Below, one piece after another: positions 4,574 to 52,753 of a stretch of DNA of 64,000 nt; within the stretch, counting starts at the first letter, position 1, and every line of letters begins with the position of its first letter. This stretch comes from Planctomycetota bacterium (GTDB lineage Bacteria; Planctomycetota; Phycisphaerae; WQYP01), in assembly GCA_021818445.1 (NCBI GenBank), contig JAKAEB010000015.1, forward strand, positions 50-64,049. Direction: 5' to 3'. A program made the position numbers and the translations under genes. The notes beneath the pieces were generated by a model, which saw only the letters and a program-made list of their open reading frames with translations, was not told the DNA's origin and made no database searches.

Positions 4574-4696
4574 GAATTAACATCCTATGACTTAAAACTT
4601 CCTCGTTGGCGGCACAATAACGCGCCAAGCGGTGCTTACGCAACCCAGGCGTAGGTGTCTGCCCGCGTATGACACACGCCACCGGTGAGAGTGCGG

Positions 4697-7513
4697 CTAT
4701 TTAGCGATCGGTACACCCTCGCGCACCTCAATTTCACTGGGCTGATTCAATTTCGATGGCTGCACGGGTGCCTTGGCGGGCGTCAACGGAAGGCTAAGTG
4801 CCTTGGCGATGATCTCTGCCTGTTCGTGAACATGGCGCTCATGCGACCCTGCCGCGGGTGAGCACGACGGTTTGCGACCGATATAAACCAGCTTTTGCAT
4901 ACCCGGCCAGTGGTAATGGAGTTTGGCCCCGATGAAGGGATATACGCCATTGTTGCGTGGCTCTTCCTGCACCCAAAACATCTCCACATTCTTGGGATAG
5001 GTGCGGGCAATTTCGGTAAGTCGATCTGCTTGGAAGGGATAAATCTGTTCCAACCTCAGGATCGCGATATCTTCAATGTGGTGCTTGCTGCGTTCGGCCA
5101 GCAATTCATAGTAAATTTTGCCGGAACACATAATGACCCGCTTCACACGCGATCGATCAATCGGGTGCGTCTCATCAATAATTTCCTCAAACTGACCGTG
5201 AGAAAATTCTTTCAAATCGGACACTGCCTGCTTGGACCGCAGCAGGCTCTTGGGGGCCATGACGATAAGCGGTTTACGGAACGAGCGAATCACCTGCCGT
5301 CGCAGCAGATGGAAGTACTGCGCCGGAGTGGTGGGATTGCACACCTGGATGTTGTCTTCGGCCGCCAATTGTAAAAAGCGTTCCAGCCGGGCGTGAGAAT
5401 GTTCCGGTCCCTGCCCTTCGTAACCATGGGGCAGCAGCATGACCAAACCGTTGTACTTATTCCACTTGGTTTCAGCACTGACAATGAACTGGTCAATGAT
5501 GGGCTGAGCCATATTGACGAAATCGCCAAACTGCGCTTCCCACATGACCAAAGCCAGCGGGTCGGCGGAGGCAAAGCCAAATTCAAAGCCCACCACGGCC
5601 AGTTCTGAAAGCATGGTGTTGATGATGGTGAAACGTGATTTATTTTCGGCAAATGCGGCCAGCGGCGTAAACGCCTCACCGTTTTTGTGGTCGTAGATGA
5701 CGGCATTGCGATGACTGAACGTTCCCCGGCAGACATCCTGGCCGGTCAGTCGCACCCATGTGCCGGCGTCCAGCAGCGACCCGATGGCAAGCATCTCGCC
5801 GGTGCCCCAATCGATGCCTGTACCACTGGTGACAGCATCGAGACGGGCTTTGTACATCTGCGCAATTTTTGGATGTGGATTAAAGTTCGATGGCAGATTA
5901 CAAAGCCGCTGGGCAATTTGCGTTAATTTGTCGGCAGGTACGGCGGTTTGGGCGCGCCAGTCTGAAATTTTTGCTGGCACTTTGACCAGGTCTTTCCACG
6001 GGCCGTGCGTGGGCGGAGCGCTTTCTGTGGGCTTAAAGGTTTTGCCATATTCGTGGGCCTTGTCCAGCCTGTCGCGGATACTGTGGGCCATTTGATCCAG
6101 TTCGGCATCGGTGGCCACGGATTCCTGCAGGAGCCGCTCGGCGTAAAGCACGCGGGTGGTTTTGTGTTTGGCAATGTCCGCATACATGAGAGGCTGCGTC
6201 ACAGACGGATCGTCCAATTCATTGTGCCCGCGCCGACGATAGCAAACTAAATCGATGATGACATCGGCTTTGAATTTTTGACGGAATGCCATCGCCAGAC
6301 GCGCCGCATGCACCACCGCCTCGGGATCGTCGCCATTGACATGGAACACCGGCGCTTGAATCGCCTTGGCCGCATCGGATGGATACCGGGTAAAGCGGGC
6401 ATCTTTGGGGTCGGTCGTGAAACCGATTTGATTGTTCACAATAATGTGGATCGTACCGCCCGTGCGGTAGGCTTCTAATTCTGAAAGATACAGGGTTTCA
6501 ACAACAACTCCCTGCCCGGTAAAGGCGGCATCACCATGAATCAGCACGGGAATGACCTGCTCGCGTGCAGCGTCACCTTTGCGGTTTTGCTTGGCGCGGA
6601 CAATCCCTTCCACAATCGGATCAACAATTTCCAGATGGCTGGGATTGGATGCCAGCGACAGGTGCATCTGTTTGCCACACGATGTGACGATGTCGCACGC
6701 ATATCCGAGATGGTATTTCACATCGCCATCCCCCTGCGATTTTTGGGGGCGATCCATCACTTCACTCATGATAACTTCGTAAGGCTTGTGAAAAATGTGT
6801 GCCAGCACGTTGAGCCGTCCGCGGTGCGCCATGCCCGTGATGAGTTCATCGGCACCAAGTTCCGATGCGGTATCAATGAGTTCGTCCATAAGGGGGATGA
6901 GTGATTCCGCCCCTTCTATCGAGAACCGCTTGACGGTCGGGTGGCGGCGTTGGAGAAATTGCTCGAATTCTTCAGCGGCGATGATGCGTGACATAATCGC
7001 CTTGCGCTTTTCTGCACTTAGCACCGGTTTATTCAGCGTCGGTTCCATGCGTTCCTGCAAAAAGGCACGCTGGGTCGGATCGCGTATTTCCATATACTCC
7101 ACGGCAAGCGTACCGCAGTAAGTGGTACGCAACATTTCAATAAGTTGCCGCAGTGGTAGCGGTGCCCCACCACCGAATGTACCGGTGGCGACGGTGCGGT
7201 CCATATCCGCATCGGTAAGGCCAAATTCGGAAAGCTCAAGCAGCGGATGCCGCGCGGCGTTGTGCCCGAGCGGATCCAGATTGGCAATCAGGTGACCCAT
7301 TTCGCGGTAGCTGTGGATCAAGTCTCCTACAGCCAATACAGCGGCCCCGGCGGCATCAGCCGGCTGGGAGAGACGCGGCGGTGAACCGGCGGCTATATCG
7401 AAACCGCGAAAGAACCAGTCCCATTGCTGATCCACCGATCGGGGATCTTTTTGCCATTGGGAATACAGGGTGTCAAGAAACTCGGGGCTGTATGCGTTAA
7501 CGGCTTCAGACAT
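4697..7513 (-). CDS. sucA: 2-oxoglutarate dehydrogenase E1 component
   Basis: ~940 aa with an E1 TPP-dependent dehydrogenase N-terminus (SVDQQWDWFF) and a transketolase-like C-terminus. Start taken at the internal ATG 7513 (MSEAVNAY...) rather than the track start at 7651. Confidence 0.9.
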   Translation of the reverse strand: MSEAVNAYSPEFLDTLYSQWQKDPRSVDQQWDWFFRGFDIAAGSPPRLSQPADAAGAAVLAVGDLIHSYREMGHLIANLDPLGHNAARHPLLELSEFGLTDADMDRTVATGTFGGGAPLPLRQLIEMLRTTYCGTLAVEYMEIRDPTQRAFLQERMEPTLNKPVLSAEKRKAIMSRIIAAEEFEQFLQRRHPTVKRFSIEGAESLIPLMDELIDTASELGADELITGMAHRGRLNVLAHIFHKPYEVIMSEVMDRPQKSQGDGDVKYHLGYACDIVTSCGKQMHLSLASNPSHLEIVDPIVEGIVRAKQNRKGDAAREQVIPVLIHGDAAFTGQGVVVETLYLSELEAYRTGGTIHIIVNNQIGFTTDPKDARFTRYPSDAAKAIQAPVFHVNGDDPEAVVHAARLAMAFRQKFKADVIIDLVCYRRRGHNELDDPSVTQPLMYADIAKHKTTRVLYAERLLQESVATDAELDQMAHSIRDRLDKAHEYGKTFKPTESAPPTHGPWKDLVKVPAKISDWRAQTAVPADKLTQIAQRLCNLPSNFNPHPKIAQMYKARLDAVTSGTGIDWGTGEMLAIGSLLDAGTWVRLTGQDVCRGTFSHRNAVIYDHKNGEAFTPLAAFAENKSRFTIINTMLSELAVVGFEFGFASADPLALVMWEAQFGDFVNMAQPIIDQFIVSAETKWNKYNGLVMLLPHGYEGQGPEHSHARLERFLQLAAEDNIQVCNPTTPAQYFHLLRRQVIRSFRKPLIVMAPKSLLRSKQAVSDLKEFSHGQFEEIIDETHPIDRSRVKRVIMCSGKIYYELLAERSKHHIEDIAILRLEQIYPFQADRLTEIARTYPKNVEMFWVQEEPRNNGVYPFIGAKLHYHWPGMQKLVYIGRKPSCSPAAGSHERHVHEQAEIIAKALSLPLTPAKAPVQPSKLNQPSEIEVREGVPIAK

Positions 7514-7992
7514 ACGGCCCAATTTACTACCACTGGAACTATCCACGTGAAAACTCCGAAAAAACGCGGCGTCTTTTTCCAGACGCTCAAAAAAAGGTGC
7601 AGGCGTTCGCAATGCCCCGGGGAATTTATCCGGAGTCAGGCCCCCGCCCATACCAACTTCGACCGACTTGATTATATGGGATAAGATTGGGCCGCTGAAA
7701 TGGCCGCATGTTAGTCACCATCAATGGCCTCCATACCCTCGCGCTACCGGCGCACCTCCCCAAGGGGGTGGAATCCATTCCATCTCCTCTGCATATTTTA
7801 TCGGACAACCGCATCGGGATACAACACGCCAATCAGCGTACGCGCTGGCGGTGCTGCGGAAACTGTGCCAGCGAGAAGACCATCGCCAATACACAACATG
7901 TTATTTTTTAATGCGTTATAAACAAATGAATCACATACCTTTAAACCCGGGGCAGTTGTATATGCGGCCTTTTACGGTCATACTTTCCGGCG

Positions 7993-15595: not shown

Positions 15596-17032
15596 ATGTT
15601 GGAGAGCGCTATGATTGCGGAATCGGCCGGTGGTTGTGAACAGTTGGACATGCAGTCGAGTCCCAACAAAATCTATTTATCTGAACTGATGGGTGCTTTA
15701 AGCTACGCCCTTGATCTGACCGAAGGATTGCCACCCGGCCATTGCCTGCGGTCGTGCTGGATCGGCATGCAGATCGCAATTGAACTGCATCTGGATGATG
15801 AGACCCTTTCTGATGTATTTTTCACCATTTTGCTCAAAGACGCGGGGTGTTCCAGTAACGCGGCCCGTATTTATGAACTTTATGATAATGATGATTTATC
15901 GGTCAAGGCGGATTTCTGCACCGTCGATAACCAGAGCCTCACACAGGTTGCCAAATTTGTCTGGTCGCATCTCGCACCGCAGGCACCTATCAGAGAAAAA
16001 CTTTCGCGTTTGATGCACCTGGCCATCAAAGGAGATGAGTTACAGGACGAAGTGGTGACCGCCCGCTGCGAACGCGGAGCCTCCATTGCCAAACGTATGG
16101 GATTTAACGACCGTGTCGCCGAGGCCATCAACAGTCTTAATGAACATTGGAATGGCAAAGGACGCCCCAACCATCTCAGCGGCAACAGCATTCCCCTTGC
16201 CAGCCGCATCGCTCTTCTGGCTCAGGTGGTTGAAATATTTTATTCGGCCGGCGGGCCGGCTCACGCCTTAAAAGAAGTGTATCGGCGCAGTGGAGCGTGG
16301 TTTGATCCGCGATTAGTGGCAGCGCTGAATTTAGCGGCCGGTAAACTGTCATTCTGGTCAACGCTCAAATCCAGCAAGCTTGAACGACTGGTGATGAGCC
16401 TCGAACCGGCATCCCACGCCATCGAGGTGGATGATGAACAGATTGATATTATTGCGGCGGCGTTTGGCGAGGTAATCGATTCTAAAAGTCCGTTCACATC
16501 CGGCCATTCGAATCGCGTGGCAATATTTGTGGACGCGATTGCATCGGAGTTGGGGCTTTCCTCCAACCGACGGCGGGCCTTACGACGGATTGCATTACTG
16601 CACGACATTGGCAAATTGGGAGTGAGCAACGCGATACTCGATAAGCCCGGTAAACTGACCGACAATGAATGGGCATGTATTAAAAAACATCCGGTCTATT
16701 CACGCAGCATTCTGGAGCGTATTTCCATTTTTTCAACGCTGGCCGGTATTGCCGGTGCCCACCATGAGAGGCTGGACGGCAAAGGTTATCCCGACGGAAT
16801 AGACAAGACGCAGATATCCCTGGAGACGCGCATCATCACTACCGCCGATGTATTTGACGCCCTGACGGCCGACCGCCCCTACCGCAAGGCTATGCCGTTG
16901 GAGCAGGCCATGGCCATTATGGAAAAAGATCGCGGCAGTGCCATCGATTCACAATGCCTCGACGCCTTGAAGCGTGCGATTGAAAATACGCAAGGGGCAA
17001 TCATTGAATCAGATAATTTGCAGCCGCAATGA
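15596..17032 (+). CDS. HD-GYP domain c-di-GMP phosphodiesterase with N-terminal sensory domain
   Basis: The HD motif (LLHDIGK) and the HD-GYP signature HHERLDGKGYPDG sit in the C-terminal ~200 aa. A ~280-aa N-terminal domain has unknown function. Confidence 0.8.
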   Translation: MLESAMIAESAGGCEQLDMQSSPNKIYLSELMGALSYALDLTEGLPPGHCLRSCWIGMQIAIELHLDDETLSDVFFTILLKDAGCSSNAARIYELYDNDDLSVKADFCTVDNQSLTQVAKFVWSHLAPQAPIREKLSRLMHLAIKGDELQDEVVTARCERGASIAKRMGFNDRVAEAINSLNEHWNGKGRPNHLSGNSIPLASRIALLAQVVEIFYSAGGPAHALKEVYRRSGAWFDPRLVAALNLAAGKLSFWSTLKSSKLERLVMSLEPASHAIEVDDEQIDIIAAAFGEVIDSKSPFTSGHSNRVAIFVDAIASELGLSSNRRRALRRIALLHDIGKLGVSNAILDKPGKLTDNEWACIKKHPVYSRSILERISIFSTLAGIAGAHHERLDGKGYPDGIDKTQISLETRIITTADVFDALTADRPYRKAMPLEQAMAIMEKDRGSAIDSQCLDALKRAIENTQGAIIESDNLQPQ

Positions 17033-17553
17033 CAGACGGCCATATGGTAATTTTCCATTCCGCGCCCTGTATCCCCCGATCGCTGAGTCATGACATTGCC
17101 CGCCACCACCAACGGCTGGAAAAATACCGGCACGCGTCGACTGGCCATATCTGATCTGATAGCGATCGACCATCAAGCGGTCATTCACCTCACAGGCGGC
17201 CAAATGGTATACAGGCCTAAGGTTGAACTGGGGGAGAATTCCTGCCGTCATTGGGTACCATTCTGCGGGTTTTGCGGTGAATAAGGACCAATGCACCGGC
17301 AAAATATGGATGCGTTGTTACAAGCTCAGAGGCCAAGCGGTCGCGATAGGTGTTTTTTTTCAATTGGACTCGCCAAACCATTTCTACAAAAGTAAAAAAT
17401 GCGGCGCGGCCAGAATTGCCCCGTGTAACGACCCATTTTTTCGCATGGATCGACCGATTCTGGAGTGCAACTTTATGACAAACTTATATATGACTAGACA
17501 AATATGGATAATCATGGAATACTTTGCATTGGTATGACATAAGGGTACATGTA

Positions 17554-18297
17554 ATGAAGCTGACAGTGAAGGACGCGGCAAACTTGCTAAGTGTCTCTGA
17601 AAAAAGCATTTATCGGTGGATTAAGAACGGATCTATTCCCGCTTACAGGGTAAATGACCAGTATCGTTTTAATCGAGCCGAGCTTCTGGAATGGGCAACT
17701 TCACGGCGTATCCAGGTTTCGCCGGAAATATTTCAGGAACCCGTCGGAGGTGATACCCCTCCCCCTTCACTCTCTGAAGCTCTTCGGGCTGGTGGTGTGC
17801 ATTATCGAATAGGTGGATGCGACAAGGCGAGTGTGCTGCGTTCGGTCGTGGAAGTTATGAACTTGCCCGAGGAGGTAGATAGTGAATTTTTGTACCAGGT
17901 GCTTTTAGCCCGCGAAGCCTTGGGGTCTACTGGTATTGGCGAAGGCATCGCCATACCCCATGTGCGTAACCCCATCGTACTGCATTTGTCGCGCCCGTTG
18001 GTGGCACTGTGCTTTTTAGAACGCCCGGTGGAATTTGGTGCCATCGACCATCATCCAGTGGCCACCTTGTTCACACTTGTCAGCCCCACCGTTCGGGCTC
18101 ACTTACATCTGCTTTCCCGGCTCGGTTTTATACTAAGGAATAATGAATTTAGAAGCGCTATTACGCGACAGGCCTCGCGCAACGAGATTATGCACGCGTT
18201 GGCCGCGGCCGAAGCGGAAATAGCACCACCGAAAGCGACAATGGCGGTATCAGAGAAACCGGTGGTGCATCGACAGGCGACAAGCACAGCGGATTAA
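17554..18297 (+). CDS. HTH (excisionase/MerR-like) - PTS EIIA type-2 fusion regulator
   Basis: The N-terminus MKLTVKDAANLLSVSEKSIYRWIKNGSIPAYRVNDQYRF is an HTH_17-type DNA-binding domain. The C-terminal PTS EIIA-2 (PtsN-like) domain carries the active-site motif GIGEGIAIPH. It sits immediately upstream of the Ehr-like operon. Confidence 0.7.
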   Translation: MKLTVKDAANLLSVSEKSIYRWIKNGSIPAYRVNDQYRFNRAELLEWATSRRIQVSPEIFQEPVGGDTPPPSLSEALRAGGVHYRIGGCDKASVLRSVVEVMNLPEEVDSEFLYQVLLAREALGSTGIGEGIAIPHVRNPIVLHLSRPLVALCFLERPVEFGAIDHHPVATLFTLVSPTVRAHLHLLSRLGFILRNNEFRSAITRQASRNEIMHALAAAEAEIAPPKATMAVSEKPVVHRQATSTAD

Positions 18298-18406: not shown

Positions 18407-20419
18407 ATGGAAATGTCTCTGACGCTTGCGGCCTGCGTGCTGATCTTAGTCAGCGGGGTACCGGGGCTATTTTCGCGCCGCCGTTCGGCTTGGGGACAAA
18501 TGACTGCCACCGTTCTGGTGCTTGCAGGTTCATTAATCGGCTTGACCGGCAGTTTTGCGGTATTGGTAACGCGGCATGTTTTCTTAGCATCGCTTCCTGG
18601 AATCTGGCCCGGTGCGCCGTTTCAATTGAAAATGGACAGCCTGTCGGCGTTTTTTTCTGTGCTGATTTTTTTAATGGCAGCCGTGGGCTCAATTTACGGG
18701 CACGGCTACTGGCGACAGCGGGAGCATTCAACAACGGGCCAAAAGCTGCGTTTGCATTATGGCGTAATGTTGGCAGCCATGGTGGTGGTCACGCTCGCAG
18801 ACGATGCCTTGGCTTTTCTGCTGGCGTGGGAAGTCATGGCCTTAACCAGTTTTTTTCTGATTGCCACGGAAGACGGCCAGCCGGAATGTCGGCAGGCGGC
18901 CTGGGTTTACTTTGTCGCCACCCATTTGAGTACACTGGCATTATTTGCAATGTTTGCATTGATGCATGAGGCATCGGGGAAATTTCTGCTTTCTGCCATT
19001 CCAGTCACAACCGGCGCAGGTTTGAAAATGGCTATTTTTCTTTTGGCTCTGCTGGGGTTTGGGCTTAAAGCCGGAATGATGCCGCTGCATTTTTGGCTCC
19101 CCAGCGCCCATGCCAATGCGCCGAGCCACATATCGGCATTACTCTCGGGTGTGCTGCTGAAGGTGGGTATTTATGGCCTGCTGCGTGTGCTGACACTTAT
19201 GCCTGATCCGCCAGCGGCATGGGGAGTATTGATTTTAACCCTCGGTGCAATCAGCGCGGTGTTGGGGGTGGCCTTTGCGCTTGGGCAACATGATATTAAG
19301 CGATTATTGGCATTTCACAGTGTCGAAAATGTCGGCATCATCCTCATGGGCTTGGGGGTGGCGATGATCGGCATCGCGGTCCATCATCCTGTATGGGTGA
19401 TACTGGGGATTGCCGGCTGCTTACTGCATGTGTGGAATCATGGCCTGTTCAAATCACTTTTATTTTTATCCGCGGGATCGATCGTACGCTCCACCGGAAC
19501 ACGCAATATAGATTCTCTTGGTGGCTTGGCGCGACGAATGCCTTGGACTGCGGGACTATTCATGCTTGGTGCCATAGCGATCTGCGGATTGCCACCATTG
19601 AACGGTTTTATAAGCGAATTGCTGGTCTACCTCGGGCTGCTGCGCCCGGCGGCCGGTCATGGGTCGGGAAGTTGGGTTGCGGTGGCCTCGGGAGCGGTTG
19701 TGCTGGCAATGGTTGGAGCCTTGGCGGTGGCATGCTTTGTCAAGGTTTTGGGCGGGGTCTTTTTAGGCTCAGGCCGGTCGACTGCGGCGACTGAAGCCTC
19801 CGAAGCGCCTTTGAGTATGCGCGGTGCCATGGCAGTTCTGGCCGGGCTTTGTGTTGCCATTGGTGTCGCACCGGTGGTGGTACTGGTCCCATTGGAAAGC
19901 GCCGCTACCGTCTGGATGGGAAATGAGGCGGCTGGCAGTCAACTCGCCGTGCTCTTCCCTTGGACCATGCTCACCGCCATATCAATGGGCCTCGCTGTCA
20001 CGATATTAATAGCCGTCACCGTATGGCAGATAATAGTGCGGGCTGATGCATCGCCGCGCCGTGCGACATGGGCGTGCGGATACACCAAATCCAACGCACG
20101 CATGCAGTACACAGCGTCATCCTTTGTACAGATACTGCTGGAATTATTACGTTGGGTATTGCGACCGATCACACACGGTGCGGGACCAAAACAGCTATTT
20201 GCCGAATCGGTCGATCGGCACACCGATGTGCCGGATTTCATTACCGACCGCATGGCCTCCAAATACTGGCAAATTTTTAAGCAGCGGTTAATACCCTTGC
20301 GTCGAATTCAACAGGGTAGTGTGCAGGAATATCTGCTCTATATGCTTCTGGCGGTGTTTATTATGCTGGCGCTACTGATTCCATTTGGGCAAATCTCCGC
20401 CCACCTTCTGGGACGATGA
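18407..20419 (+). CDS. Ehr/Hyf-type complex antiporter-like membrane subunit (HyfB/NuoL-like)
   Basis: 670-aa polytopic protein with the Mrp/NuoL-family motif WLPSAHANAPSHISALLSGVLLKVGIYGLLR. An RBS-like GGAG precedes the ATG. It is the first gene of a tightly packed operon. Confidence 0.85.
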   Translation: MEMSLTLAACVLILVSGVPGLFSRRRSAWGQMTATVLVLAGSLIGLTGSFAVLVTRHVFLASLPGIWPGAPFQLKMDSLSAFFSVLIFLMAAVGSIYGHGYWRQREHSTTGQKLRLHYGVMLAAMVVVTLADDALAFLLAWEVMALTSFFLIATEDGQPECRQAAWVYFVATHLSTLALFAMFALMHEASGKFLLSAIPVTTGAGLKMAIFLLALLGFGLKAGMMPLHFWLPSAHANAPSHISALLSGVLLKVGIYGLLRVLTLMPDPPAAWGVLILTLGAISAVLGVAFALGQHDIKRLLAFHSVENVGIILMGLGVAMIGIAVHHPVWVILGIAGCLLHVWNHGLFKSLLFLSAGSIVRSTGTRNIDSLGGLARRMPWTAGLFMLGAIAICGLPPLNGFISELLVYLGLLRPAAGHGSGSWVAVASGAVVLAMVGALAVACFVKVLGGVFLGSGRSTAATEASEAPLSMRGAMAVLAGLCVAIGVAPVVVLVPLESAATVWMGNEAAGSQLAVLFPWTMLTAISMGLAVTILIAVTVWQIIVRADASPRRATWACGYTKSNARMQYTASSFVQILLELLRWVLRPITHGAGPKQLFAESVDRHTDVPDFITDRMASKYWQIFKQRLIPLRRIQQGSVQEYLLYMLLAVFIMLALLIPFGQISAHLLGR

Positions 20420-20443
20420 ACAGGCGATGGGGAAGTATGGGCC

Positions 20444-21355
20444 ATGTTGAATGATGTTATGACTATTGCGATCCATATTGGACTGCTGTTGTTTATGCCG
20501 CCGCTGCTGCCCGGCGTCATCAACAGGACAAAGGCCGTTTTTGCGGGGCGTAAGGGACCACCACTACTGCAGCCCTATTTTGATATCTGCAAATTATTTC
20601 ATAAAGGTATGGTCATAAGCGAATCAACTACATGGGTATTCCTGGCGGCACCGGTCGTAGCACTGGCGGCCACGCTATTGGCGGGGCTGCTGCTGCCATT
20701 CGGACCGTTCGCCGCTCCAATTCACTTCACGGGCGATTTAATTCTGTTTGTATATCTGTTTGGACTGGCCCGCTTTTTTACCACGTCCGCCGCATTGGAT
20801 ACCGGGTCCTCCTTTGAAGGTATGGGGGCGGCGCGCGAAGTAGCCTTTGCCTGTCTTTCCGAGACGGCGTTCCTATTGGGCCTGCTGGTTCTGGTTCGAT
20901 TGTCCGGGAGTGTCAGTCTGACACCCATGCTGCTGTCACCGCTGGCGCATCCACCGGAAGCCCCTGTACTAATGGCCGCCGCGGGATTATTTATCGTGCT
21001 GCTGGCCGAAAATTTGCGCATCCCCGTGGATGATCCGAATACCCACCTGGAATTGACGATGATTCACGAGGCTATGGTGCTGGATAACAGTGGTCCTTTG
21101 CTGGGGCTGGTTCATTATGGATCAGCGATGAAACTGTTTGTTTTAAGCGCACTGGCATTGCATCTGTTTGTGCCATTTCAAATCGGCATATTCGGCGCGG
21201 ATTGGGGCCTATTCGTCATCGAGATGATCGCGATGGCCGCTGTCATTGGGATAGTCGAATCCACCATGGCGCGACTGCAGATGCGCCATGTGCCCACACT
21301 GCTTATGGCGGCAGGCCTGTTGAATGGAATCGGTTTTGTTTTGATGGTGAGATAG
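20444..21355 (+). CDS. HycD/NuoH-like membrane subunit
   Basis: The N-terminal motif NRTKAVFAGRKGPPLLQPYFDICKLFHK matches NuoH/HycD (R-K-x-x-A-x-x-Q-x-R-x-GP ... QP.AD..KL). It is an 8-TM membrane protein. Confidence 0.85.
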   Translation: MLNDVMTIAIHIGLLLFMPPLLPGVINRTKAVFAGRKGPPLLQPYFDICKLFHKGMVISESTTWVFLAAPVVALAATLLAGLLLPFGPFAAPIHFTGDLILFVYLFGLARFFTTSAALDTGSSFEGMGAAREVAFACLSETAFLLGLLVLVRLSGSVSLTPMLLSPLAHPPEAPVLMAAAGLFIVLLAENLRIPVDDPNTHLELTMIHEAMVLDNSGPLLGLVHYGSAMKLFVLSALALHLFVPFQIGIFGADWGLFVIEMIAMAAVIGIVESTMARLQMRHVPTLLMAAGLLNGIGFVLMVR

Positions 21356-21358
21356 GCC

Positions 21359-22000
21359 GTGCACTGGTTGATTGATACGCCGTTGGTGCTTGTGATGCTG
21401 CTGAATCTGTTCATGCTGGGCGTAAGCCGCATGAGATCGCTTATTTACTCTGCCGCCGTCCAAGGCGTCGTATTAAGTCTGTTACCGTTGCTGCTGGAAA
21501 AGCAGATTGGCGCGATGATTATTGTGGTGGCCGTGGTAACCGTCGCGATTAAAGGTGTATTAATTCCGCAGATGCTCCACAAGGCCCTGCTTGACGTGCA
21601 GATCAAACGCGAAGTCGAACCACTGATTGGCTTTTTGCCCACCATGCTCATGGGGGCCTTGGGGACGGCGTTGTCAATTGCTTTTGCGGCGTATTTGCCC
21701 ATGACGCAGGCGGGAAGTTCCACCCTGATTATTCCGGCCTCATTTTCGACAATGCTGACCGGCTTTCTGCTTTTAACCACACGATATAAAGCCATTACAC
21801 AAGTCATTGGCTATCTGATACTGGAAAATGGAATTTACATTTTTGGCGTTTTGCTCCTGACGGCAGTGCCCTTTCTGGTGGAGATGGGAATTTTACTGGA
21901 TTTATATGTAGGCATTTTTGTGGTCAGCATTATTCTCAATCATATCACCAAGGCGTTTTCATCCCTCGATACCCGCCGACTTACGGCCTTGAAGGAATAG
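21359..22000 (+). CDS. HyfE-like small membrane subunit
   Basis: 213-aa hydrophobic protein in the position and size of hydrogenase-4 HyfE. It is operonic, with a 3-nt gap to the previous gene. Confidence 0.7.
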   Translation: MHWLIDTPLVLVMLLNLFMLGVSRMRSLIYSAAVQGVVLSLLPLLLEKQIGAMIIVVAVVTVAIKGVLIPQMLHKALLDVQIKREVEPLIGFLPTMLMGALGTALSIAFAAYLPMTQAGSSTLIIPASFSTMLTGFLLLTTRYKAITQVIGYLILENGIYIFGVLLLTAVPFLVEMGILLDLYVGIFVVSIILNHITKAFSSLDTRRLTALKE

Positions 22001-22006
22001 GCTTGC

Positions 22007-23446
22007 ATGTTGTTGCCTGTGCTTATTTTCATTCCGATTCTGGCGGCCATTGCGGCGGCCGCGATCACGTCCAATGTTTTGCGCCCCTGGATAATGCCGG
22101 TGGCGGCAGGCCTGCATTTTGCCGGGACGCTGGCCGTGATGAATGTAAATACAGCGCCAATATGGGGTGGCTGGGTGGGCATGGACCCACCGGGGAAGCT
22201 TGTGCTGCTTTTAATCAGCACCTTATTTCTGATTTGCGCAATTTATATCGTTGGCTATTTGCGGTATCGTACCGAGCGATCGAATCGAGTTTTAATTCCA
22301 TGCCTGCTGATATTTGCGGCCGGCGCGACACTGGTAACCTGTGCCCAGCAATTGGGATTGATGTGGATCGGCGTGGAAACCACGGCTCTCAGCACCGCAC
22401 CGATGATTTACTTTAACCGCACGCCGCGCTCCGTCGAGGCCACCTGGAAATATTTAATGTTAAGTTCAGTCGGCATCGCACTGGCACTTCTGGGTTCCTT
22501 TTTTCTGGTTTACGCATCGTTGGCAAATCATCAGCATGCAACTTTGATCTTCTCGCATCTGGTGCGGCACGCAGGGGCGGCTAATGCGCTCTGGCTCAAG
22601 ATGGCATTTGTGTTTTTACTGATTGGATACGGTACAAAAATGGGGCTGGCACCCGTGCACACCTGGAAACCGGATGCATACGGTGAAGCGCCGGGCGTGA
22701 TAGGGGCTTTACTGGCGGGTGGATTGACAAGCCTGGCGTTTCTGGCAATTTTGCGCGTTGATCGGGTCTGCATCGCCGGTGGTTTGCAGTCGTATACAAG
22801 CCACCTACTCATCGGCATGGGGCTGCTGTCCATGATCGTGGCGGCGGTGTTTGTGCTGGGCCAGAAAGATATTAAGCGCATGCTGGCTTATTCAAGTGTG
22901 GAGCAAATGGGAATTTTAGCCTTGGGTGCAGGTATTGGTGGCCCCGCTCTTTATGGATCGCTGCTGCAAATGATCAACAATGGCCTCGCTAAAGGCATGT
23001 TGTTTCTCGCGGCGGGTAATATCCACCGATCTTATGGCAGTAAAAACATCGATGAAGTTCACGGAGCGATGCGGCGGCTACCTTTGTCCGGCACCATTTT
23101 CATGCTTGGCTTTCTGGCTATCGCCGGATCACCACCGTTTGGACCATTCGTCAGCGTGTTCACTATCCTCAACGCCATCTTCGCCAGGCATTTCTTTTTT
23201 ATATGCGGGTTATTTTTATTCCTGTTGCTGATTGTGTTTGTCGGCATGGGCCGCACAGTATTGGCCACTGTATTTGGGAAAACATTACCGCGAAAGCGTT
23301 CCATTAACGCTTATCACGATGGCTTGATGACGAGTCTTCCTCTGATGTTGTCGCTTCTTTTGATATTGATACTCGGCGTGCACATTCCGTCATTTCTCAC
23401 GCACATGCTGCGTCAGGCAGAGGCATTTATGCAGGTGCAGCCATGA
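22007..23446 (+). CDS. second antiporter-like subunit (HyfF/NuoN-M-like)
   Basis: The motif WKPDAYGEAPGVIGALLAGGLTSLAFLAILR is NuoM/N-type. The gene ends in an ATGA overlap with the next gene. Confidence 0.85.
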   Translation: MLLPVLIFIPILAAIAAAAITSNVLRPWIMPVAAGLHFAGTLAVMNVNTAPIWGGWVGMDPPGKLVLLLISTLFLICAIYIVGYLRYRTERSNRVLIPCLLIFAAGATLVTCAQQLGLMWIGVETTALSTAPMIYFNRTPRSVEATWKYLMLSSVGIALALLGSFFLVYASLANHQHATLIFSHLVRHAGAANALWLKMAFVFLLIGYGTKMGLAPVHTWKPDAYGEAPGVIGALLAGGLTSLAFLAILRVDRVCIAGGLQSYTSHLLIGMGLLSMIVAAVFVLGQKDIKRMLAYSSVEQMGILALGAGIGGPALYGSLLQMINNGLAKGMLFLAAGNIHRSYGSKNIDEVHGAMRRLPLSGTIFMLGFLAIAGSPPFGPFVSVFTILNAIFARHFFFICGLFLFLLLIVFVGMGRTVLATVFGKTLPRKRSINAYHDGLMTSLPLMLSLLLILILGVHIPSFLTHMLRQAEAFMQVQP

Positions 23447-24993
23447 CCAACATGTCGGCAAAGCAAAATAATCCCATGGCGGAAATATCCAACGGGCAGG
23501 TTCTGGCTCGGTCCGCAATACCGGATATGCCATTGCCCGAGTTTCAACATGCGATTGTGGACGCGGTCGAGGCACATCATAGGATATGTGCACTCTTCGG
23601 CTCTCTCGATGCCGAGGATGAGTCCTGTTTGACGCTCTATGTGGTCCTTGCCGACGATCACCGTAACCGACTGTATGTTGCAAGCGCCAACGTATCGAGC
23701 GATGGTTTCCCGTCGCTGACGCCGCGATGTCCGCAGGTGCATCTGTTTGAGCGGGAAATCGCTGAGCAATTTGGCGTTAAGCCGATGGGCCATCCGTGGC
23801 TCAAACCAGTACGATTCCACCGCAGCTATCGCTTGGGAACTGATGCGTGGAATCGTGGTGACAATGATGCCGTCGAGGCAGGGATTATGGACTATTATCA
23901 GATTACGGGCGGGCAGGTCCATGAGGTGGCCGTCGGCCCGATCCACGCAGGGGTTATTGAGCCGGGGCACTTTCGATTTCAATGTGACGGCGAAGTAATA
24001 CTGCACCTGGAAATTTGCCTGGGTTATCAGCATCGTGGTATTGAACGGGCAATGGAGCGTGGCCCAAATAAGCGATCTTTGCATTACGCCGAGACACTTG
24101 CCGGAGATACCACCGTGGGGCATGCCAGTGCCTACACCCAGTTGATGGAATCACTGGGAAGCTGCCAGATCAGCCCGCGTGCCGCAGCCATCCGCGGCAT
24201 TGCCATGGAACTTGAACGCCTCGCGAACCACATGGGCGATCTTGGTGCCTTATCCGGTGATGTCGGATTTCTTCCCACGGCCTCATTCTGCGGACGGATT
24301 CGGGGCGATTGCCTTAATATGACCGCCGCGCTTTGCGGCAACCGATTTGGCCGGGGATTACTACGGATCGGTGGGGTAAGGTTTGATGCGGACGCGGCGC
24401 TTGCCGATGACCTGATTAGACGACTGGACGCCATCGAACACGACTCCTGTGCGGCGATAAACTTATTGTGGGAAACATCATCGGTCATGGCGCGGTTTGA
24501 AGGTATTGGTGCTGTTTCCGAAGAAGTCGCACGGGAAATTGGCATGGTTGGTCCGGCGGCCCGCGCCTGCGGACTGGATTTGGATTTGCGACGCGATCAT
24601 CCCTCGGGTATCTATCAGTTCAACCACATCCCGGTTTCCACCTGGCGCGGTGGTGATGTCTTTGCCCGGGCGTATGTGCGTTGGCTGGAGATTCAACGTT
24701 CTATTCTGTACATCAGGGAGCAACTCAAAGCCCTGCCTGCCGGATTAATGCAAGTTGATTTTTCCGCTCCGCGGCCAGAGGCTCTGGTTGTGACCTTGCA
24801 GGAAGCATGGCGCGGCCAAATATGTCATATAGCCCTTACGGATGCCCAAGGCCGCTTTGAACGCTACAAAATTGTTGATCCATCTTTTTATAATTGGATG
24901 GCCGTAGCGATGGCGGTGCGAGGTCAGCAGATATCTGATTTTCCTTTGTGTAATAAAAGTTTTAATCTTTCATACTGCGGACACGACTTATGA
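23443..24993 (+). CDS. group-4 hydrogenase-like large subunit (fused NuoC-NuoD/HycE-like) lacking [NiFe]-binding cysteines
   Basis: It has a NuoC-like N-terminal domain. It also has the HycE-like core VGPIHAGVIEPGHFRF...LGYQHRGIE. Where HycE has the RxCGxC motif, the sequence reads ETLAGDTTVGH (Cys replaced by Ala and Thr). The C-terminal DPCxxCxxR position reads NLSYCGHDL. No CxxC occurs anywhere in the 516 aa. Confidence 0.85.
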   Translation: MTNMSAKQNNPMAEISNGQVLARSAIPDMPLPEFQHAIVDAVEAHHRICALFGSLDAEDESCLTLYVVLADDHRNRLYVASANVSSDGFPSLTPRCPQVHLFEREIAEQFGVKPMGHPWLKPVRFHRSYRLGTDAWNRGDNDAVEAGIMDYYQITGGQVHEVAVGPIHAGVIEPGHFRFQCDGEVILHLEICLGYQHRGIERAMERGPNKRSLHYAETLAGDTTVGHASAYTQLMESLGSCQISPRAAAIRGIAMELERLANHMGDLGALSGDVGFLPTASFCGRIRGDCLNMTAALCGNRFGRGLLRIGGVRFDADAALADDLIRRLDAIEHDSCAAINLLWETSSVMARFEGIGAVSEEVAREIGMVGPAARACGLDLDLRRDHPSGIYQFNHIPVSTWRGGDVFARAYVRWLEIQRSILYIREQLKALPAGLMQVDFSAPRPEALVVTLQEAWRGQICHIALTDAQGRFERYKIVDPSFYNWMAVAMAVRGQQISDFPLCNKSFNLSYCGHDL

Positions 24994-25018
24994 CGTATAC
25001 CGCCCCCGAGGACCCGCG

Positions 25019-25822
25019 ATGATCAACGCCTTGATTGCCCGCCTGAAACAAGGCTACGGTACGGTGGATTATCCGTCCGCCAAAGCCGCGTTGCCAGCCA
25101 TGCCGGACCGATTTCGAGGTCGGCCGTTATTCGATACAACCCGCTGTGGAGACGGATGCCGCCATTGCGCTGACGCATGCCCCACGGAAGCGATCGCGAT
25201 CAAAGGTAAGAACATTTCAGTGGATTTGGGCCGCTGTCTATTCTGTACCGATTGCATGGATGCCTGCCCGGAAAAATCTGTGAGTCATTCCGCCGACTAC
25301 CGCCTCGCGGTGCGCGATGCATCAGATCTGGTGGTGCGCGACGAACAGGAACTGAAATTGGCCACGGAATTAGACCGCCAATTACGTCGACTTTTCGGTC
25401 GGAGCCTGCACTTAAGGCACGTGAGTGCCGGTGGATGCAACGGCTGCGAATCGGATGTAAATGTGCTCGGAACGATCGGATGGGACATGTCGCGATTCGG
25501 AATTTCGTTGGTTGCTTCGCCGCGCCATGCTGACGGGCTATTGATCACCGGGCCGGTGACGCAAAATATGAGGCAGGCTCTTAGAATCGCCTATGATGCC
25601 GTCCCCGATCCCAAAATTGTCATCGCCGTCGGAGCTTGCGCCCTGTCTGGTGGCCCATATATTAATCATGCCGAGGTTAGCAACGGCGCAGACGATGTTG
25701 TGCCCGTTGACTTGTATATCCCCGGCTGTCCACCCCATCCACTGACAATTCTTGATGGTCTCTTGCGTCTTCTGGGTACTAAAAACCTGGATGACCGACA
25801 GGTAACCAAACGCGGCGGCTAA
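25019..25822 (+). CDS. ferredoxin (2x[4Fe-4S]) fused to HycG/NuoB-like small subunit
   Basis: The N-terminus carries CGDGCRHCADACP and CLFCTDCMDACPE cluster motifs. The C-terminal half reads GGCNGCESDV...SPRHADGLLITGPVT...VGACALSGGPY...YIPGCPP, which matches HycG with all proximal-cluster ligands present. A GAGGA RBS lies upstream. Confidence 0.85.
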   Translation: MINALIARLKQGYGTVDYPSAKAALPAMPDRFRGRPLFDTTRCGDGCRHCADACPTEAIAIKGKNISVDLGRCLFCTDCMDACPEKSVSHSADYRLAVRDASDLVVRDEQELKLATELDRQLRRLFGRSLHLRHVSAGGCNGCESDVNVLGTIGWDMSRFGISLVASPRHADGLLITGPVTQNMRQALRIAYDAVPDPKIVIAVGACALSGGPYINHAEVSNGADDVVPVDLYIPGCPPHPLTILDGLLRLLGTKNLDDRQVTKRGG

Positions 25823-25881
25823 TCTGCGTGTGAAATTTGGCGTAGACCGGCGGTGCTCGTTCGTTGCTTTTTGGCCAATGT

Positions 25882-52618: not shown

Positions 52619-52753
52619 GTAGCGTTGGGCGGGCTGTCAACAGGGCGGAACGTTACCCACTTTGCCGCTGCGGAAATTTGCCGATGCGCAATCCCGGCTG
52701 AAAGCGGCTACACTTTTAGAAAACGTCGAACTGGCGAGCTTATCGGCGGATTC

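What the first reader, a model, noticed from the sequence alone, without database searches (positions are those of the whole stretch)
18407..25822. Six-gene group-4 hydrogenase-like (Ehr-type) respiratory complex whose catalytic subunit cannot bind a [NiFe] centre
The operon has the Hyf/formate-hydrogenlyase layout. It contains a NuoL-like antiporter, a HycD/NuoH-like subunit, a HyfE-like subunit, a second antiporter-like subunit, a fused NuoC-NuoD/HycE-like large subunit and a HycG-like small subunit. The large subunit keeps the hydrogenase-type core (VGPIHAGVIEPGHFRF, LGYQHRGIE), but the four Ni/Fe-ligating cysteines are all replaced. The L1 position reads E-T-L-A-G-D-T-T-V-G-H instead of R-x-C-G-x-C-x-x-x-H. 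The C-terminal position reads N-L-S-Y-C-G-H-D-L instead of D-P-C-x-x-C-x-x-R. Not a single CxxC motif occurs in the 516 residues. The small subunit retains all four cysteines for the proximal [4Fe-4S] cluster and gains two more clusters. So the complex is wired for electron transfer into a catalytic pocket with unknown chemistry, perhaps a quinone-like or other acceptor, as in complex I. No hyp, hycI or formate dehydrogenase genes are in the window. Such 'energy-converting hydrogenase-related' complexes have been noted bioinformatically, but their substrate and physiological role are unknown. This copy comes with its own dedicated regulator.
Basis: partly seen in the sequence, partly recalled or inferred. 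Interest (0 to 1): 0.85.

Follow-up and report, generated by a model that had tools for sequence, protein, structure and literature searches.

The report
Ehr/Hyq-type hydrogenase-like membrane complex operon
This is an intact copy, in a planctomycete, of a widespread and already described family of membrane complexes that look like energy-converting hydrogenases but have lost the nickel-iron site; the substrate is still unknown, and this copy adds detail, not a new kind.

Summary
Six tightly spaced + strand genes (18407-25822) encode NuoL/HyfB-, NuoH/HycD-, HyfE- and HyfF/NuoN-like membrane subunits, a fused NuoC-NuoD/HycE-like large subunit and a small subunit. The small subunit is a HycF/NuoI-like 2x[4Fe-4S] domain fused to a HycG/NuoB-like domain. 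All four Ni-Fe cysteine columns are replaced (Ala220, Thr223, Ser510, Gly513). The complex I quinone ligands are also absent (Ile172, Gly221).

The system is not new. It belongs to the Ehr family (Geobacter ehr; Marreiros 2013) and matches the Azorhizobium hyqRBCEFGI operon subunit for subunit. Hundreds of relatives occur across more than ten phyla.

New details found here:
- A family-wide signature: Gly-Asp in L1, and C-terminal NKSFNLSY-x-G-x-DL ending at the HycE cleavage point.
- An HTH_17-EIIA regulator co-inherited with the operon across seven phyla.
- No conserved partner genes.
- Intact proton-pump residues in EhrA and EhrB, and purifying selection on EhrL.

Best guess: a ferredoxin-fed, ion-translocating oxidoreductase, most likely reducing menaquinone. 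The acceptor is inferred, not shown. Interest is moderate.

The parts
17495..17523 (+). Putative sigma-70-type promoter (TAGACA-17-AATACT with an extended -10 TG) upstream of the regulator gene
   Evidence: Consensus scan (the total number of hits is not above shuffles). It falls in a sequence block conserved with L001, L002, L007 and L015. Inferred, not shown.
17554..18297 (+). Regulator gene, 247 aa: an N-terminal HTH_17 (MerR/excisionase-type) DNA-binding domain fused to a PTS EIIA-2 (PtsN-like) domain. The phosphorylatable His lies in GIAIPH (codon 17959-17961).
   Evidence: Pfam HTH_17 7.5e-17 and PTS_EIIA_2 4.8e-24. NCBIfam PtsN 2e-18, below its cut-off. The His and the GxGxAxPH motif are invariant in 23 homologues. 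A homologue sits next to the operon in 25 of 31 loci. An identical 247-aa protein is called on metagenome contigs.
18407..20419 (+). EhrA/HyqB: NuoL/HyfB-like antiporter-like subunit with the C-terminal extension
   Evidence: NCBIfam hydrogenase 4 subunit B 3.6e-175, and NuoL aligned over residues 10-658. Pump residues E142, K221, K252, H341, H345, K349 and E404 are all present.
20444..21355 (+). EhrB/HyqC: NuoH/HycD-like subunit
   Evidence: Pfam NADHdh 1.3e-33. R36, D47, R131, E140, R192, D196, E203 and R277 are shared with E. coli NuoH and conserved in 32-33 of 33 homologues.
21359..22000 (+). EhrC/HyqE: HyfE-like membrane subunit
   Evidence: NCBIfam hydrogenase 4 membrane subunit 5.9e-21, below its cut-off. 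29% identical to rhizobial HyqE.
22007..23446 (+). EhrD/HyqF: HyfF/NuoN-like antiporter-like subunit. In this sub-clade the TM12 Glu is replaced by Val384.
   Evidence: NCBIfam hydrogenase 4 subunit F 3.6e-90. E124, K211 and K329 are kept; TM12 is Val and TM8 is Ser/Gln.
23443..24993 (+). EhrL/HyqG: fused NuoC-NuoD/HycE-like large subunit without Ni-Fe ligands
   Evidence: Pfam Complex1_30kDa + Complex1_49kDa. Best PDB sequence match HycE 7z0s_E, 8e-50. AF2 model pTM 0.86, with best Foldseek match 7z0s_E at TM 0.83.
24091..24123 (+). Codons 217-227, ETLAGDTTVGH: the position of the hydrogenase L1 motif RxCGxCxxxH
   Evidence: Gly221 is conserved in 84 of 84 and Asp222 in 78 of 84 diverse family members. 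NiFe enzymes have Val, Ile or Ala at the Asp222 position.
24949..24990 (+). Codons 503-516, CNKSFNLSYCGHDL: the position of DPCxxCxxR. The protein ends where HycE is cleaved.
   Evidence: Ser510 is conserved in 81/84, Gly513 in 83/84 and Asp515 in 84/84. HycE and HyfG continue for 32 more residues.
25019..25822 (+). EhrS/HyqI: small subunit. The N-terminal HycF/NuoI-like 2x[4Fe-4S] domain has its Cys at codons 43-83 (nt 25145-25267). The HycG/NuoB-like domain has its Cys at 140, 143, 207 and 237 (nt 25436-25729).
   Evidence: Pfam Fer4_10 and Oxidored_q6. NCBIfam formate hydrogenlyase Fe-S subunit 8.9e-20 on residues 3-114 and NuoB 1.9e-35 on 112-251. Cys conservation.
25848..25866 (+). Terminator-like hairpin followed by a T-rich run, after the last gene
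   Evidence: Consensus scan only; not above the shuffle expectation. radA follows, converging on the - strand.

Best explanation
This is a seven-gene unit: one regulator gene and six structural genes. It encodes an Ehr/Hyq-type complex, a minimal relative of energy-converting group-4 hydrogenases and of complex I.

Proposed working, step by step:
- A soluble low-potential carrier, most likely reduced ferredoxin, docks on the HycF/NuoI-like domain of the small subunit (inferred).
- Electrons pass along three [4Fe-4S] clusters to the proximal cluster. All twelve Cys ligands are shown to be present.
- They reduce an acceptor bound in the remodelled pocket where hydrogenases hold Ni-Fe and complex I holds quinone. 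The pocket sits at the EhrL/EhrS/EhrB interface and is lined by the family-invariant Gly221-Asp222, Ser510, Tyr511, Arg457 and Glu173. The residues are shown; their role is inferred.
- The acceptor is most likely membrane menaquinone (inferred, weakest step).
- The reaction drives H+ or Na+ translocation through EhrB and the antiporter-like EhrA and EhrD. The pump residues are shown to be conserved; pumping is inferred. The reaction could run in reverse.
- Expression is set by the upstream HTH_17-EIIA protein, whose conserved His suggests control by PTS-type phosphorylation, that is, by carbon/nitrogen/energy status (inferred).

Confidence by layer: identity as an Ehr/Hyq complex 0.95; Fe-S wire plus ion pump 0.8; quinone as acceptor about 0.4.
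For: - Subunit identities.
- Ligand columns.
- Cys of three clusters invariant.
- One-to-one homology, in the same order, with rhizobial HyqBCEFGI (29-52% identity).
- The second sphere of the hydrogenase site is kept family-wide (H168, E173, H197, E201, E236, R251, E256, R259, H263, R301, R383, D405, R409, E454, R457, D515). Only Asp222, Asp479-Pro480, Ser510 and Gly513 differ systematically from NiFe enzymes.
- EhrA carries the complete NuoM/HyfB-type set of pump residues, and EhrB keeps the NuoH charged residues.
- dN/dS of EhrL is about 0.1 against four relatives.
- The seven-gene unit is conserved in Planctomycetota, Verrucomicrobiota, Kiritimatiellae, Omnitrophota, Myxococcota, Spirochaetota and Hyphomicrobiales. 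No other gene is conserved beside it, so the donor should be a general soluble carrier.
- The fold is HycE-like.
- The Hyq authors also inferred a quinone-linked enzyme from homology to the complex I quinone cavity: PMC3357923.
Against: - The two canonical quinone ligands of NuoD are absent (Ile172, Gly221). The proximal cluster motif is the hydrogenase CxxC, not the NuoB tandem Cys.
- Ehr complexes are reported in Riflemargulisbacteria without quinone biosynthesis (PMC6349859) and in CPR bacteria (PMC7304191). Window-type relatives occur in Spirochaetaceae and Cloacimonadota MAGs, lineages that are, from general knowledge, often fermentative. Quinone therefore cannot be the acceptor for the whole family.
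- The rhizobial Hyq small subunit lacks the ferredoxin-like domain, so the entry route differs between branches.
- In this window, EhrD has lost its TM12 Glu.
- No biochemical data exist for any member, and the PDB copy searched holds no solved structure closer than HycE.
Confidence: 0.45

Rival explanations
1. It is a hydrogenase after all. Like the Azorhizobium Hyq 'endo-hydrogenase', the complex would evolve or consume H2 at a site that is not the classical Cys4-bound Ni-Fe centre.
For: - Deleting hyqRBCEFGI slowed diazotrophic growth (PMC2650096).
- In a delta-hupSL background the deletion removed about 80% of microaerobic H2 evolution (PMC3357923).
- The authors themselves note that HyqG lacks both CxxC motifs.
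- The window operon is homologous subunit for subunit.
- The proton-gate Glu173 and canopy Arg457 of hydrogenases are retained.
- Ehr occurs in quinone-less fermenters, where proton reduction would make physiological sense.
Against: - The H2 evidence is whole-cell and indirect. The double mutant still evolved 20%, and no enzyme was purified.
- No Cys is conserved across the whole family, so no common thiolate-ligated metal site is apparent.
- No hyp genes are in the window.
- The window large subunit is only 33% identical to rhizobial HyqG and sits in a different sub-clade.
Confidence: 0.08
2. It is an energy-converting oxidoreductase, but the acceptor is neither quinone nor protons. Candidates are a soluble or sulfur compound, as in Pyrococcus Mbs (formerly Mbx), or some other still unknown substrate.
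For: - Both the Ni-Fe and the quinone ligand sets are missing.
- A distinct and strongly conserved polar signature (Asp222, Asp479, Ser510) replaces them.
- The family is found in organisms reported to lack quinone synthesis.
- MbsL (6u8y_L) is a detectable relative (E=3e-17), showing that this scaffold has changed substrate before.
Against: - No gene for a substrate-specific partner or transporter is conserved next to the operon in any phylum.
- All four Cys of the proximal cluster are kept. From my own recollection, not checked here, Mbs catalysis was ascribed to an Fe-S site.
- The family also lives in aerobic rhizobia.
Confidence: 0.2
3. It has the same architecture but works physiologically in reverse. 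The membrane potential would drive electrons from quinol up to ferredoxin or flavodoxin, supplying low-potential reductant.
For: - In Azorhizobium the operon belongs to the nif regulon, depends on NifA, and is needed for full diazotrophic growth (abstract). This fits a role in feeding a process that needs low-potential electrons.
- The window genome encodes 2-oxoglutarate dehydrogenase and lipoamide dehydrogenase, that is, NADH-type oxidative metabolism.
- Complex I-type machines are reversible (statement in PMC3357923).
Against: - The Azorhizobium authors reported high H2 output even in a nifK mutant, which this reading does not explain simply.
- There is no nif or sigma-54 signal near the window operon.
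- The direction cannot be read from sequence.
Confidence: 0.15
4. It is not a turnover enzyme. The Fe-S chain would act as a redox sensor that gates an Mrp-like cation/proton antiporter.
For: - No acceptor ligands can be recognised.
- The rhizobial form has only one cluster and no obvious wire to the surface.
- The antiporter-like subunits are intact.
Against: - The whole hydrogenase second sphere, and the NuoH-like coupling residues that link the pocket to the pumps, are under strong constraint. That is more than a sensor would need.
- A three-cluster wire is typical of electron throughput.
Confidence: 0.08
5. It is a decaying relic of a [NiFe] hydrogenase operon with no function.
For: Loss of all four metal ligands.
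Against: - All six reading frames are intact.
- dN/dS is about 0.1.
- The replacement residues are themselves near-invariant across phyla.
- The operon and its regulator are conserved in at least seven phyla.
- Subunits are detected as proteins in Geobacter.
Confidence: 0.02

Closest known systems
Ehr (Ech-hydrogenase-related / energy-converting hydrogenase-related) complex, type example Geobacter sulfurreducens GSU0739-GSU0745 (EhrA-1, A-2, B, C, D, L, S)
   Same: - Same subunit set as named in the literature: NuoL-like EhrA, HyfE-like EhrC, and large and small subunits (PMC7894505).
- The large subunit lacks the Ni-Fe cysteines.
- Function is unknown.
- The nearest relatives of the window also have two EhrA copies, like Geobacter.
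   Different: - The window has a single EhrA.
- The Geobacter sequences could not be fetched, so identity, the small-subunit fusion and the regulator type were not compared directly.
Hyq 'endo-hydrogenase' operon hyqRBCEFGI of Azorhizobium caulinodans and rhizobia (compared here with Rhizobium ruizarguesonis pTA1_4, locus L035)
   Same: - Seven genes: a regulator first, then six structural genes in the same order.
- One-to-one homology (38, 35, 29, 40, 33 and 52% identity).
- HyqG is a fused NuoC::NuoD of 504 aa without CxxC motifs.
- Same L1 'SGD' and C-terminal 'NKSFN-SY-G-DL' signature, ending at the same position.
   Different: - HyqR is a 104-aa XRE-type HTH protein with no detectable similarity to the window's HTH_17-EIIA regulator.
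- HyqI (177 aa) lacks the 2x[4Fe-4S] domain.
- Hyq is NifA/sigma-54 controlled, and no such signal is found here.
- Hyq falls in a separate branch lacking Cys181 and Cys512.
E. coli formate hydrogenlyase / hydrogenase 3 and hydrogenase 4 (HycBCDEFG, HyfA-J; PDB 7Z0S)
   Same: - Best sequence and fold match of the large subunit.
- Same membrane subunit families.
- Hydrogenase-type CxxC at the proximal cluster.
- The conserved second sphere is the same.
   Different: - All four Ni-Fe Cys are replaced.
- There is no 32-residue C-terminal extension for HycI processing.
- No HycB/HyfA, formate dehydrogenase, hyp or hycI genes are nearby.
- HycF and HycG are fused into one protein.
- Identity is only 26%.
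Respiratory complex I and its ferredoxin-dependent 11-subunit relatives (NDH-1, Fpo)
   Same: - NuoB/C/D/H/L/N homologues are present, with the Fe-S chain ending at an N2-like cluster.
- Pump residues are conserved.
- This is the model for the proposed ferredoxin-to-quinone mechanism.
   Different: - The NuoD His and Tyr quinone ligands are absent.
- There is no tandem-Cys N2 motif.
- There is no NuoA/J/K set as such, and no NuoEFG.
- It has six subunits instead of 11-14.
Pyrococcus furiosus Mbs (formerly Mbx), PDB 6U8Y
   Same: A group-4-hydrogenase-derived complex that has given up H2 chemistry for another acceptor. It is counted among hydrogenase-related complexes in the literature.
   Different: - It is a much weaker match than HycE (E=3e-17 against 8e-50).
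- It has a different, larger Mrp-type membrane arm (from my own knowledge).
- Its ligand columns were not compared residue by residue here.

Membership tests
Group 4 [NiFe]-hydrogenase | L1 motif RxCGxCxxxH with two Ni-Fe Cys ligands | tested here: not met
   ETLAGDTTVGH at 217-227. The Cys columns hold Ala220 and Thr223.
Group 4 [NiFe]-hydrogenase | C-terminal motif DPCxxCxx(H/R) with two Ni-Fe Cys ligands | tested here: not met
   NLSYCGHDL. The Cys columns hold Ser510 and Gly513, and Cys512 is one column off.
Group 4 [NiFe]-hydrogenase | Maturation machinery (hypA-F, a specific endopeptidase) and a cleavable C-terminal extension | tested here: inconclusive
   There is no extension: the protein ends at the HycE Arg537-equivalent position. 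No hyp or hycI genes are in the 64-kb window. The rest of the genome is not available.
Ehr (energy-converting / Ech hydrogenase-related complex) | A group-4-hydrogenase-like gene cluster with antiporter-like, NuoH-like and HyfE-like membrane subunits plus large and small subunit homologues | tested here: met
   Definition taken from PMC6349859 and PMC7894505.
Ehr (energy-converting / Ech hydrogenase-related complex) | The large subunit lacks the residues that coordinate Ni and Fe | tested here: met
Ehr (energy-converting / Ech hydrogenase-related complex) | Groups phylogenetically with described Ehr sequences (for example Geobacter EhrL) | not tested
   Reference Ehr sequences could not be fetched. 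Only a rough NJ tree was made, with rhizobial HyqG, Cys-retaining sisters, HycE, HyfG and NuoCD.
Hyq operon (hyqRBCEFGI) | Six structural genes B, C, E, F, G, I in this order, with HyqG a fused NuoC::NuoD lacking both CxxC motifs | tested here: met
Hyq operon (hyqRBCEFGI) | HyqR-type regulator and NifA/sigma-54 control | tested here: not met
   The regulator here is HTH_17 + EIIA, with no similarity to rhizobial HyqR (best unrelated hits E>0.1). There is no sigma-54 -24/-12 element upstream.
Hyq operon (hyqRBCEFGI) | Short NuoB-like HyqI carrying a single [4Fe-4S] cluster | tested here: not met
   The window small subunit carries an extra N-terminal 2x[4Fe-4S] domain.
Respiratory complex I (NADH or ferredoxin:quinone oxidoreductase) | NuoD quinone-headgroup ligands (T. 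thermophilus His38/Tyr87 = E. coli NuoCD His224/Tyr273) | tested here: not met
   Ile172 and Gly221. Ile172 is conserved in 148/149 close and 88/100 diverse homologues, and Gly221 in 149/149 and 94/100 (pairwise alignment).
Respiratory complex I (NADH or ferredoxin:quinone oxidoreductase) | Tandem-Cys ligation of cluster N2 in NuoB | tested here: not met
   C140-N-G-C143 is the hydrogenase type. The NuoB CC aligns with G142-C143.
Respiratory complex I (NADH or ferredoxin:quinone oxidoreductase) | Conserved Glu/Lys pump residues in the antiporter-like subunits and charged residues of NuoH | tested here: met
   EhrA has the full set. EhrD is partial (TM12 Val). EhrB keeps R36, D47, R131, E140, R192, D196, E203 and R277.

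The most novel reading that the evidence does not exclude
The remodelled pocket of EhrL is a new kind of catalytic site. It has invariant Gly-Asp in place of CGxC, Ser-Tyr-x-Gly in place of CxxC, and, in this clade, conserved Cys181, Cys503, Cys512 and His514. The hydrogenase proton gate and canopy arginine are retained. The site would carry out proton-coupled redox chemistry without a classical Ni-Fe centre. One possibility is H2 turnover, as the Azorhizobium hyq genetics suggest. Another is reduction of an unrecognised substrate. Either would give many anaerobes and microaerophiles a previously uncounted energy-conserving reaction.
Probability: 0.1. Interest if true: 0.9.

Novelty: new member of a known kind. 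Interest (0 to 1): 0.42.

Why it matters
Ehr/Hyq complexes are among the commonest complex I relatives without an assigned reaction. They turn up in Planctomycetota, Verrucomicrobiota, Geobacter, Nitrospira, rhizobia and many candidate phyla, and metabolic reconstructions currently leave them blank. Knowing the acceptor would change the energy budgets drawn for many anaerobes and microaerophiles. It would also bear on how quinone-reducing complex I arose from proton-reducing hydrogenases.

This window does not solve that. The comparative results do narrow the experiment:
- The unit is self-contained, with no partner genes.
- The invariant residues to mutate are Asp222, Ser510 and Asp479.
- The conserved PTS-type regulator points to the conditions under which to look for expression.
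- Cultured carriers exist: Fontivita pretiosa, Geobacter sulfurreducens and Azorhizobium caulinodans. A Phycisphaera mikurensis-labelled MAG also carries it.

Tried and rejected
- Searched for conserved partner genes (formate dehydrogenase, NuoEF, ferredoxin, hyp) next to the operon in 31 loci. Nothing is shared beyond close relatives, and the neighbours tested are housekeeping genes such as LpxA, PanC, NadB and HisF.
- Looked for a sigma-54/NifA-type promoter as in Azorhizobium hyq. Matches to TGGCAC-N5-TTGC are fewer than in shuffles and none lies upstream of the operon.
- Looked for an operator-like repeat between the regulator and ehrA. There are no repeats and no conserved block apart from the ribosome-binding site.
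- Tested the idea of a new Cys/His metal site. The Cys are strongly conserved in close relatives, but none is conserved across the whole Ehr/Hyq family. The idea survives only as a clade-specific possibility.
- Checked whether the UbiA-family gene and the radical SAM gene in the window indicate menaquinone synthesis. They are EboC-like (below cut-off) and an anaerobic sulfatase maturase, so they are not informative.
- Searched the literature for a biochemical or structural study of Ehr. None was found in the library. A 2026 paper listed for 'Ehr' does not contain the word.
- The structure model could not be used to inspect the pocket. No coordinates are returned, and the active-site loops have pLDDT below 50.

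Full report

Yes. The six + strand ORFs lie exactly where stated: 18407-20419, 20444-21355, 21359-22000, 22007-23446, 23443-24993 and 25019-25822. The gaps between them are 24, 3, 6, -4 and 25 nt, which is the spacing of an operon.

Pfam and NCBIfam assign the products as follows:
- A NuoL/HyfB-like antiporter subunit (hydrogenase 4 subunit B, 3.6e-175). NuoL aligns to residue 658, so the C-terminal extension is present.
- A NuoH/HycD-like subunit.
- A HyfE-like subunit.
- A HyfF/NuoN-like subunit.
- A single protein combining the 30-kDa (NuoC) and 49-kDa (NuoD/HycE) domains.
- A single protein combining a 2x[4Fe-4S] ferredoxin-like domain (formate hydrogenlyase Fe-S subunit model, residues 3-114) with a NuoB/HycG domain (residues 112-251).

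The best PDB match of the large subunit is E. coli HycE (7z0s_E, 8e-50), ahead of Thermus Nqo4 and Pyrococcus MbhL. In that alignment and in two multiple alignments, the four Ni-Fe ligands C241, C244, C531 and C534 of HycE correspond to Ala220, Thr223, Ser510 and Gly513. Cys512 sits one column before the fourth ligand, and no CxxC exists in the protein.

The small subunit has all eight Cys of two ferredoxin-type clusters and the four Cys of the proximal cluster. These are invariant in 27-28 of 28 homologues. The proximal motif is the hydrogenase CxxC, not the tandem Cys of NuoB.

I picked the 47 longest non-overlapping ORFs of at least 100 aa in the window and scanned them all. None is a hyp, hycI or formate dehydrogenase gene. 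The neighbours are housekeeping genes: carB, an HD-GYP protein, radA, a TPR protein, bacA and gyrA.

**2. Where does it come from and how common is it?**

The closest genomic relatives are MAGs of Planctomycetota/Phycisphaerae, with 75-79% identity of the large subunit. The regulator protein is found with an identical sequence on more than 20 metagenome contigs.

The family is very large:
- The exhaustive search of 50%-identity representatives gave 6519 proteins at E<=0.001 and 883 at E<=1e-30.
- Named members come from Hydrogenedentota, Acidobacteriota, Bacteroidota, Lentisphaeria, Cloacimonadota, Longimicrobiales, Sulfurospirillum, Thermodesulfovibrio and others.
- Rhizobium, Variovorax, Paraburkholderia, Cupriavidus and Rhodococcus plasmids carry related large subunits.

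**3. What the comparison adds**

(a) *A conserved seven-gene unit.* In 31 loci from seven phyla the six genes keep their order. A homologue of the upstream HTH_17-EIIA gene lies next to them in 25 loci; most of the rest are cut by contig ends. In Verrucomicrobiota it sits between an EhrA copy and EhrB and is only 24-29% identical, yet still linked.

The EIIA active-site motif GxGxAxPH is invariant, including the His. The true start is 17554, giving 247 aa. A sequence block upstream of the regulator gene is conserved among the closest loci and coincides with a sigma-70-like site with an extended -10. Nothing but the ribosome-binding site is conserved between the regulator and ehrA. The unit is therefore probably one transcript, as described for hyqRBCEFGI.

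(b) *No partner genes.* No other gene is conserved beside the unit across phyla. The same-strand neighbours I annotated are unrelated housekeeping genes. The complex brings no input module of its own.

(c) *A family signature.* In 84 diverse members (32-64% identity), almost the whole second sphere of group-4 hydrogenases is kept. This includes the Glu of the EPGHFR loop, the Arg of the (P/W)RG motif and the L2 His. Systematic differences from Cys-retaining enzymes are few:
- Asp222, between the two lost L1 cysteines (Val/Ile/Ala in the NiFe enzymes).
- Asp479-Pro480.
- Ser510 and Gly513.

The protein ends at ...SY-x-G-x-DL, exactly where HycE is cut by its protease. HycE and HyfG run on for 32 residues.

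(d) *Sub-clades.* A rough neighbour-joining tree places the family next to a small group that still has CGxC and CxxC (for example 'Ca. Wujingus californicus' and 'Ca. Carbobacillus altaicus'), far from HycE/HyfG. Within the family, a Hyq-like grade includes rhizobial HyqG. A large clade marked by Cys181, and usually Cys503 and Cys512, includes the window.

Close relatives conserve many Cys and His: C181, C283, C298, C461, C503, C512, H160, H188, H227, H462 and H514. None of the Cys is conserved family-wide.

(e) *The coupling machinery is intact.* EhrA has every pump residue of NuoM/HyfB: E142, K221, K252, H341, H345, K349 and E404. EhrB keeps the charged residues shared by NuoH and HycD. In the window and its nearest relatives, EhrD has Val in place of the TM12 Glu.

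(f) *Selection.* dN/dS of the large subunit against four relatives is about 0.1, although dS is near saturation.

(g) *Fold.* The AlphaFold model (pTM 0.86) matches HycE best (TM 0.83), then E. coli NuoCD. The loops that would form the active site are modelled with low confidence. No solved structure closer than HycE appeared in either PDB search.

**4. What is known**

The class is described in the literature.
- 'Ech-hydrogenase-related' Ehr in Geobacter sulfurreducens (GSU0739-45) has NuoL-like EhrA-1, HyfE-like EhrC, EhrL and EhrS. All subunits were more abundant in formate-grown cells. The authors state that its role has never been investigated (PMC7894505).
[quoted passage not shown] In every case they lack the Ni-Fe Cys and their function is unknown.

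Azorhizobium caulinodans has a seven-gene hyqRBCEFGI operon. HyqG is a 504-aa NuoC::NuoD fusion that, as the authors state, lacks both CxxC motifs. Deleting the operon slowed diazotrophic growth. In a delta-hupSL background it removed about 80% of microaerobic H2 evolution. The operon is NifA-dependent. Degli Esposti (PMC4758237) lists ehr and hyq together as group-4 subtypes without canonical Ni-Fe ligands.

I fetched a rhizobial hyq operon (L035) and compared it with the window:
- All six structural proteins match one-to-one, at 29-52% identity.
- HyqR is an unrelated short XRE-type HTH protein.
- HyqI lacks the ferredoxin-like domain.

A Variovorax plasmid carries a window-type cluster with a fused small subunit (40% large-subunit identity), directly followed by a second hyf-like cluster.

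**5. How it most likely works**

*Shown:*
- An Fe-S wire of three clusters.
- A hydrogenase-like pocket whose first-sphere ligands are replaced by conserved polar residues.
- Intact NuoH-like and antiporter-like coupling subunits.
- Strong purifying selection.
- A self-contained operon with a PTS-EIIA-type regulator.

*Inferred:*
- A soluble low-potential donor, most likely ferredoxin, feeds the HycF-like domain.
- Electrons reach an acceptor in the pocket.
- The reaction is coupled to H+ or Na+ translocation, possibly reversibly.

I rank menaquinone as the most likely acceptor in this organism. The architecture is that of a minimal complex I. The Hyq authors reached the same inference. From general knowledge, Phycisphaerae contain menaquinone.

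This step is weak. The NuoD His and Tyr quinone ligands are absent. Ehr also occurs in lineages reported to lack quinone synthesis.

The rivals, weighed in their own sections, are:
- A non-classical hydrogenase.
- Another acceptor.
- Reverse electron transport.
- A redox-gated antiporter.
- A dead relic. This last one is contradicted by the conservation data.

**6. Verdict**

The finding is accurate and well interpreted. It is one more member of a known, widespread and enigmatic family, not a new system. Its sub-type (fused small subunit, HTH_17-EIIA regulator, single EhrA) is a variant within the family's known range. Interest is moderate. The open question of what Ehr/Hyq complexes do is real and long-standing, but this uncultured copy does not by itself make it more testable. 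The residues and the regulator identified here would help design the decisive experiments in cultured carriers.

Noticed in passing
window 22007-23446 (EhrD), codons 321 and 384: The TM12 charged residue of this antiporter-like subunit is Glu in 22 of 32 homologues and equals NuoM E407. It is Val in the window and Val/Leu/Ile in its nearest relatives (L001, L002, L007, L022, L009, L010). A TM8 His is Gln in the same set. One of the two pump modules may be partly disabled in this sub-clade.
   Followed up: partly
L001 4971-6824, L002 4385-6286, L005-L008, L022 (compare window 20419-20444): The closest relatives carry a second, divergent EhrA paralogue (about 45% identity) between EhrA and EhrB, as in Geobacter ehrA-1/ehrA-2. 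The window has only one EhrA. L007 and L022 have a further EhrA-like plus EhrD-like pair downstream of EhrS.
   Followed up: partly
window 17480-17556: A block upstream of the regulator gene is conserved with L001, L002, L007 and L015 (TAGAC-N6-TGGAC ... ATAAT ... TGTCATAAGGAG). It may contain the promoter and the regulator's own binding site.
   Followed up: partly
L036 (Variovorax sp. PBL-E5 plasmid 3) 3929-11213 and 14625-19452: Two hydrogenase-4-like clusters lie side by side on a plasmid. One is a window-type Ehr cluster with a fused small subunit. The other begins with hyfB. Whether the second keeps the Ni-Fe cysteines was not checked.
   Followed up: no
window 15596-17032: An HD-GYP-type (HD_5) protein with about 280 N-terminal residues that match no Pfam family lies just upstream of the regulator gene. 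It is not conserved next to the operon in other loci.
   Followed up: no
window 49036-50367 and 52625-53734: An anaerobic sulfatase-maturating radical SAM enzyme (above the NCBIfam cut-off) and an EboC-like UbiA-family prenyltransferase (below cut-off). The first suggests the organism can live anaerobically. Neither is linked to the operon.
   Followed up: partly
window 3308-7651 and 57462-58862: 2-oxoglutarate dehydrogenase E1 and E2 genes, and a separate dihydrolipoyl dehydrogenase gene, indicate an oxidative TCA cycle in the same genome.
   Followed up: no
P0221, P0269, P0214, P0225 (sister group of the family): The nearest relatives that still have CGxC and CxxC also end at the D-(R/L) position without a C-terminal extension. 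They would be [NiFe] large subunits that need no endopeptidase cleavage.
   Followed up: no
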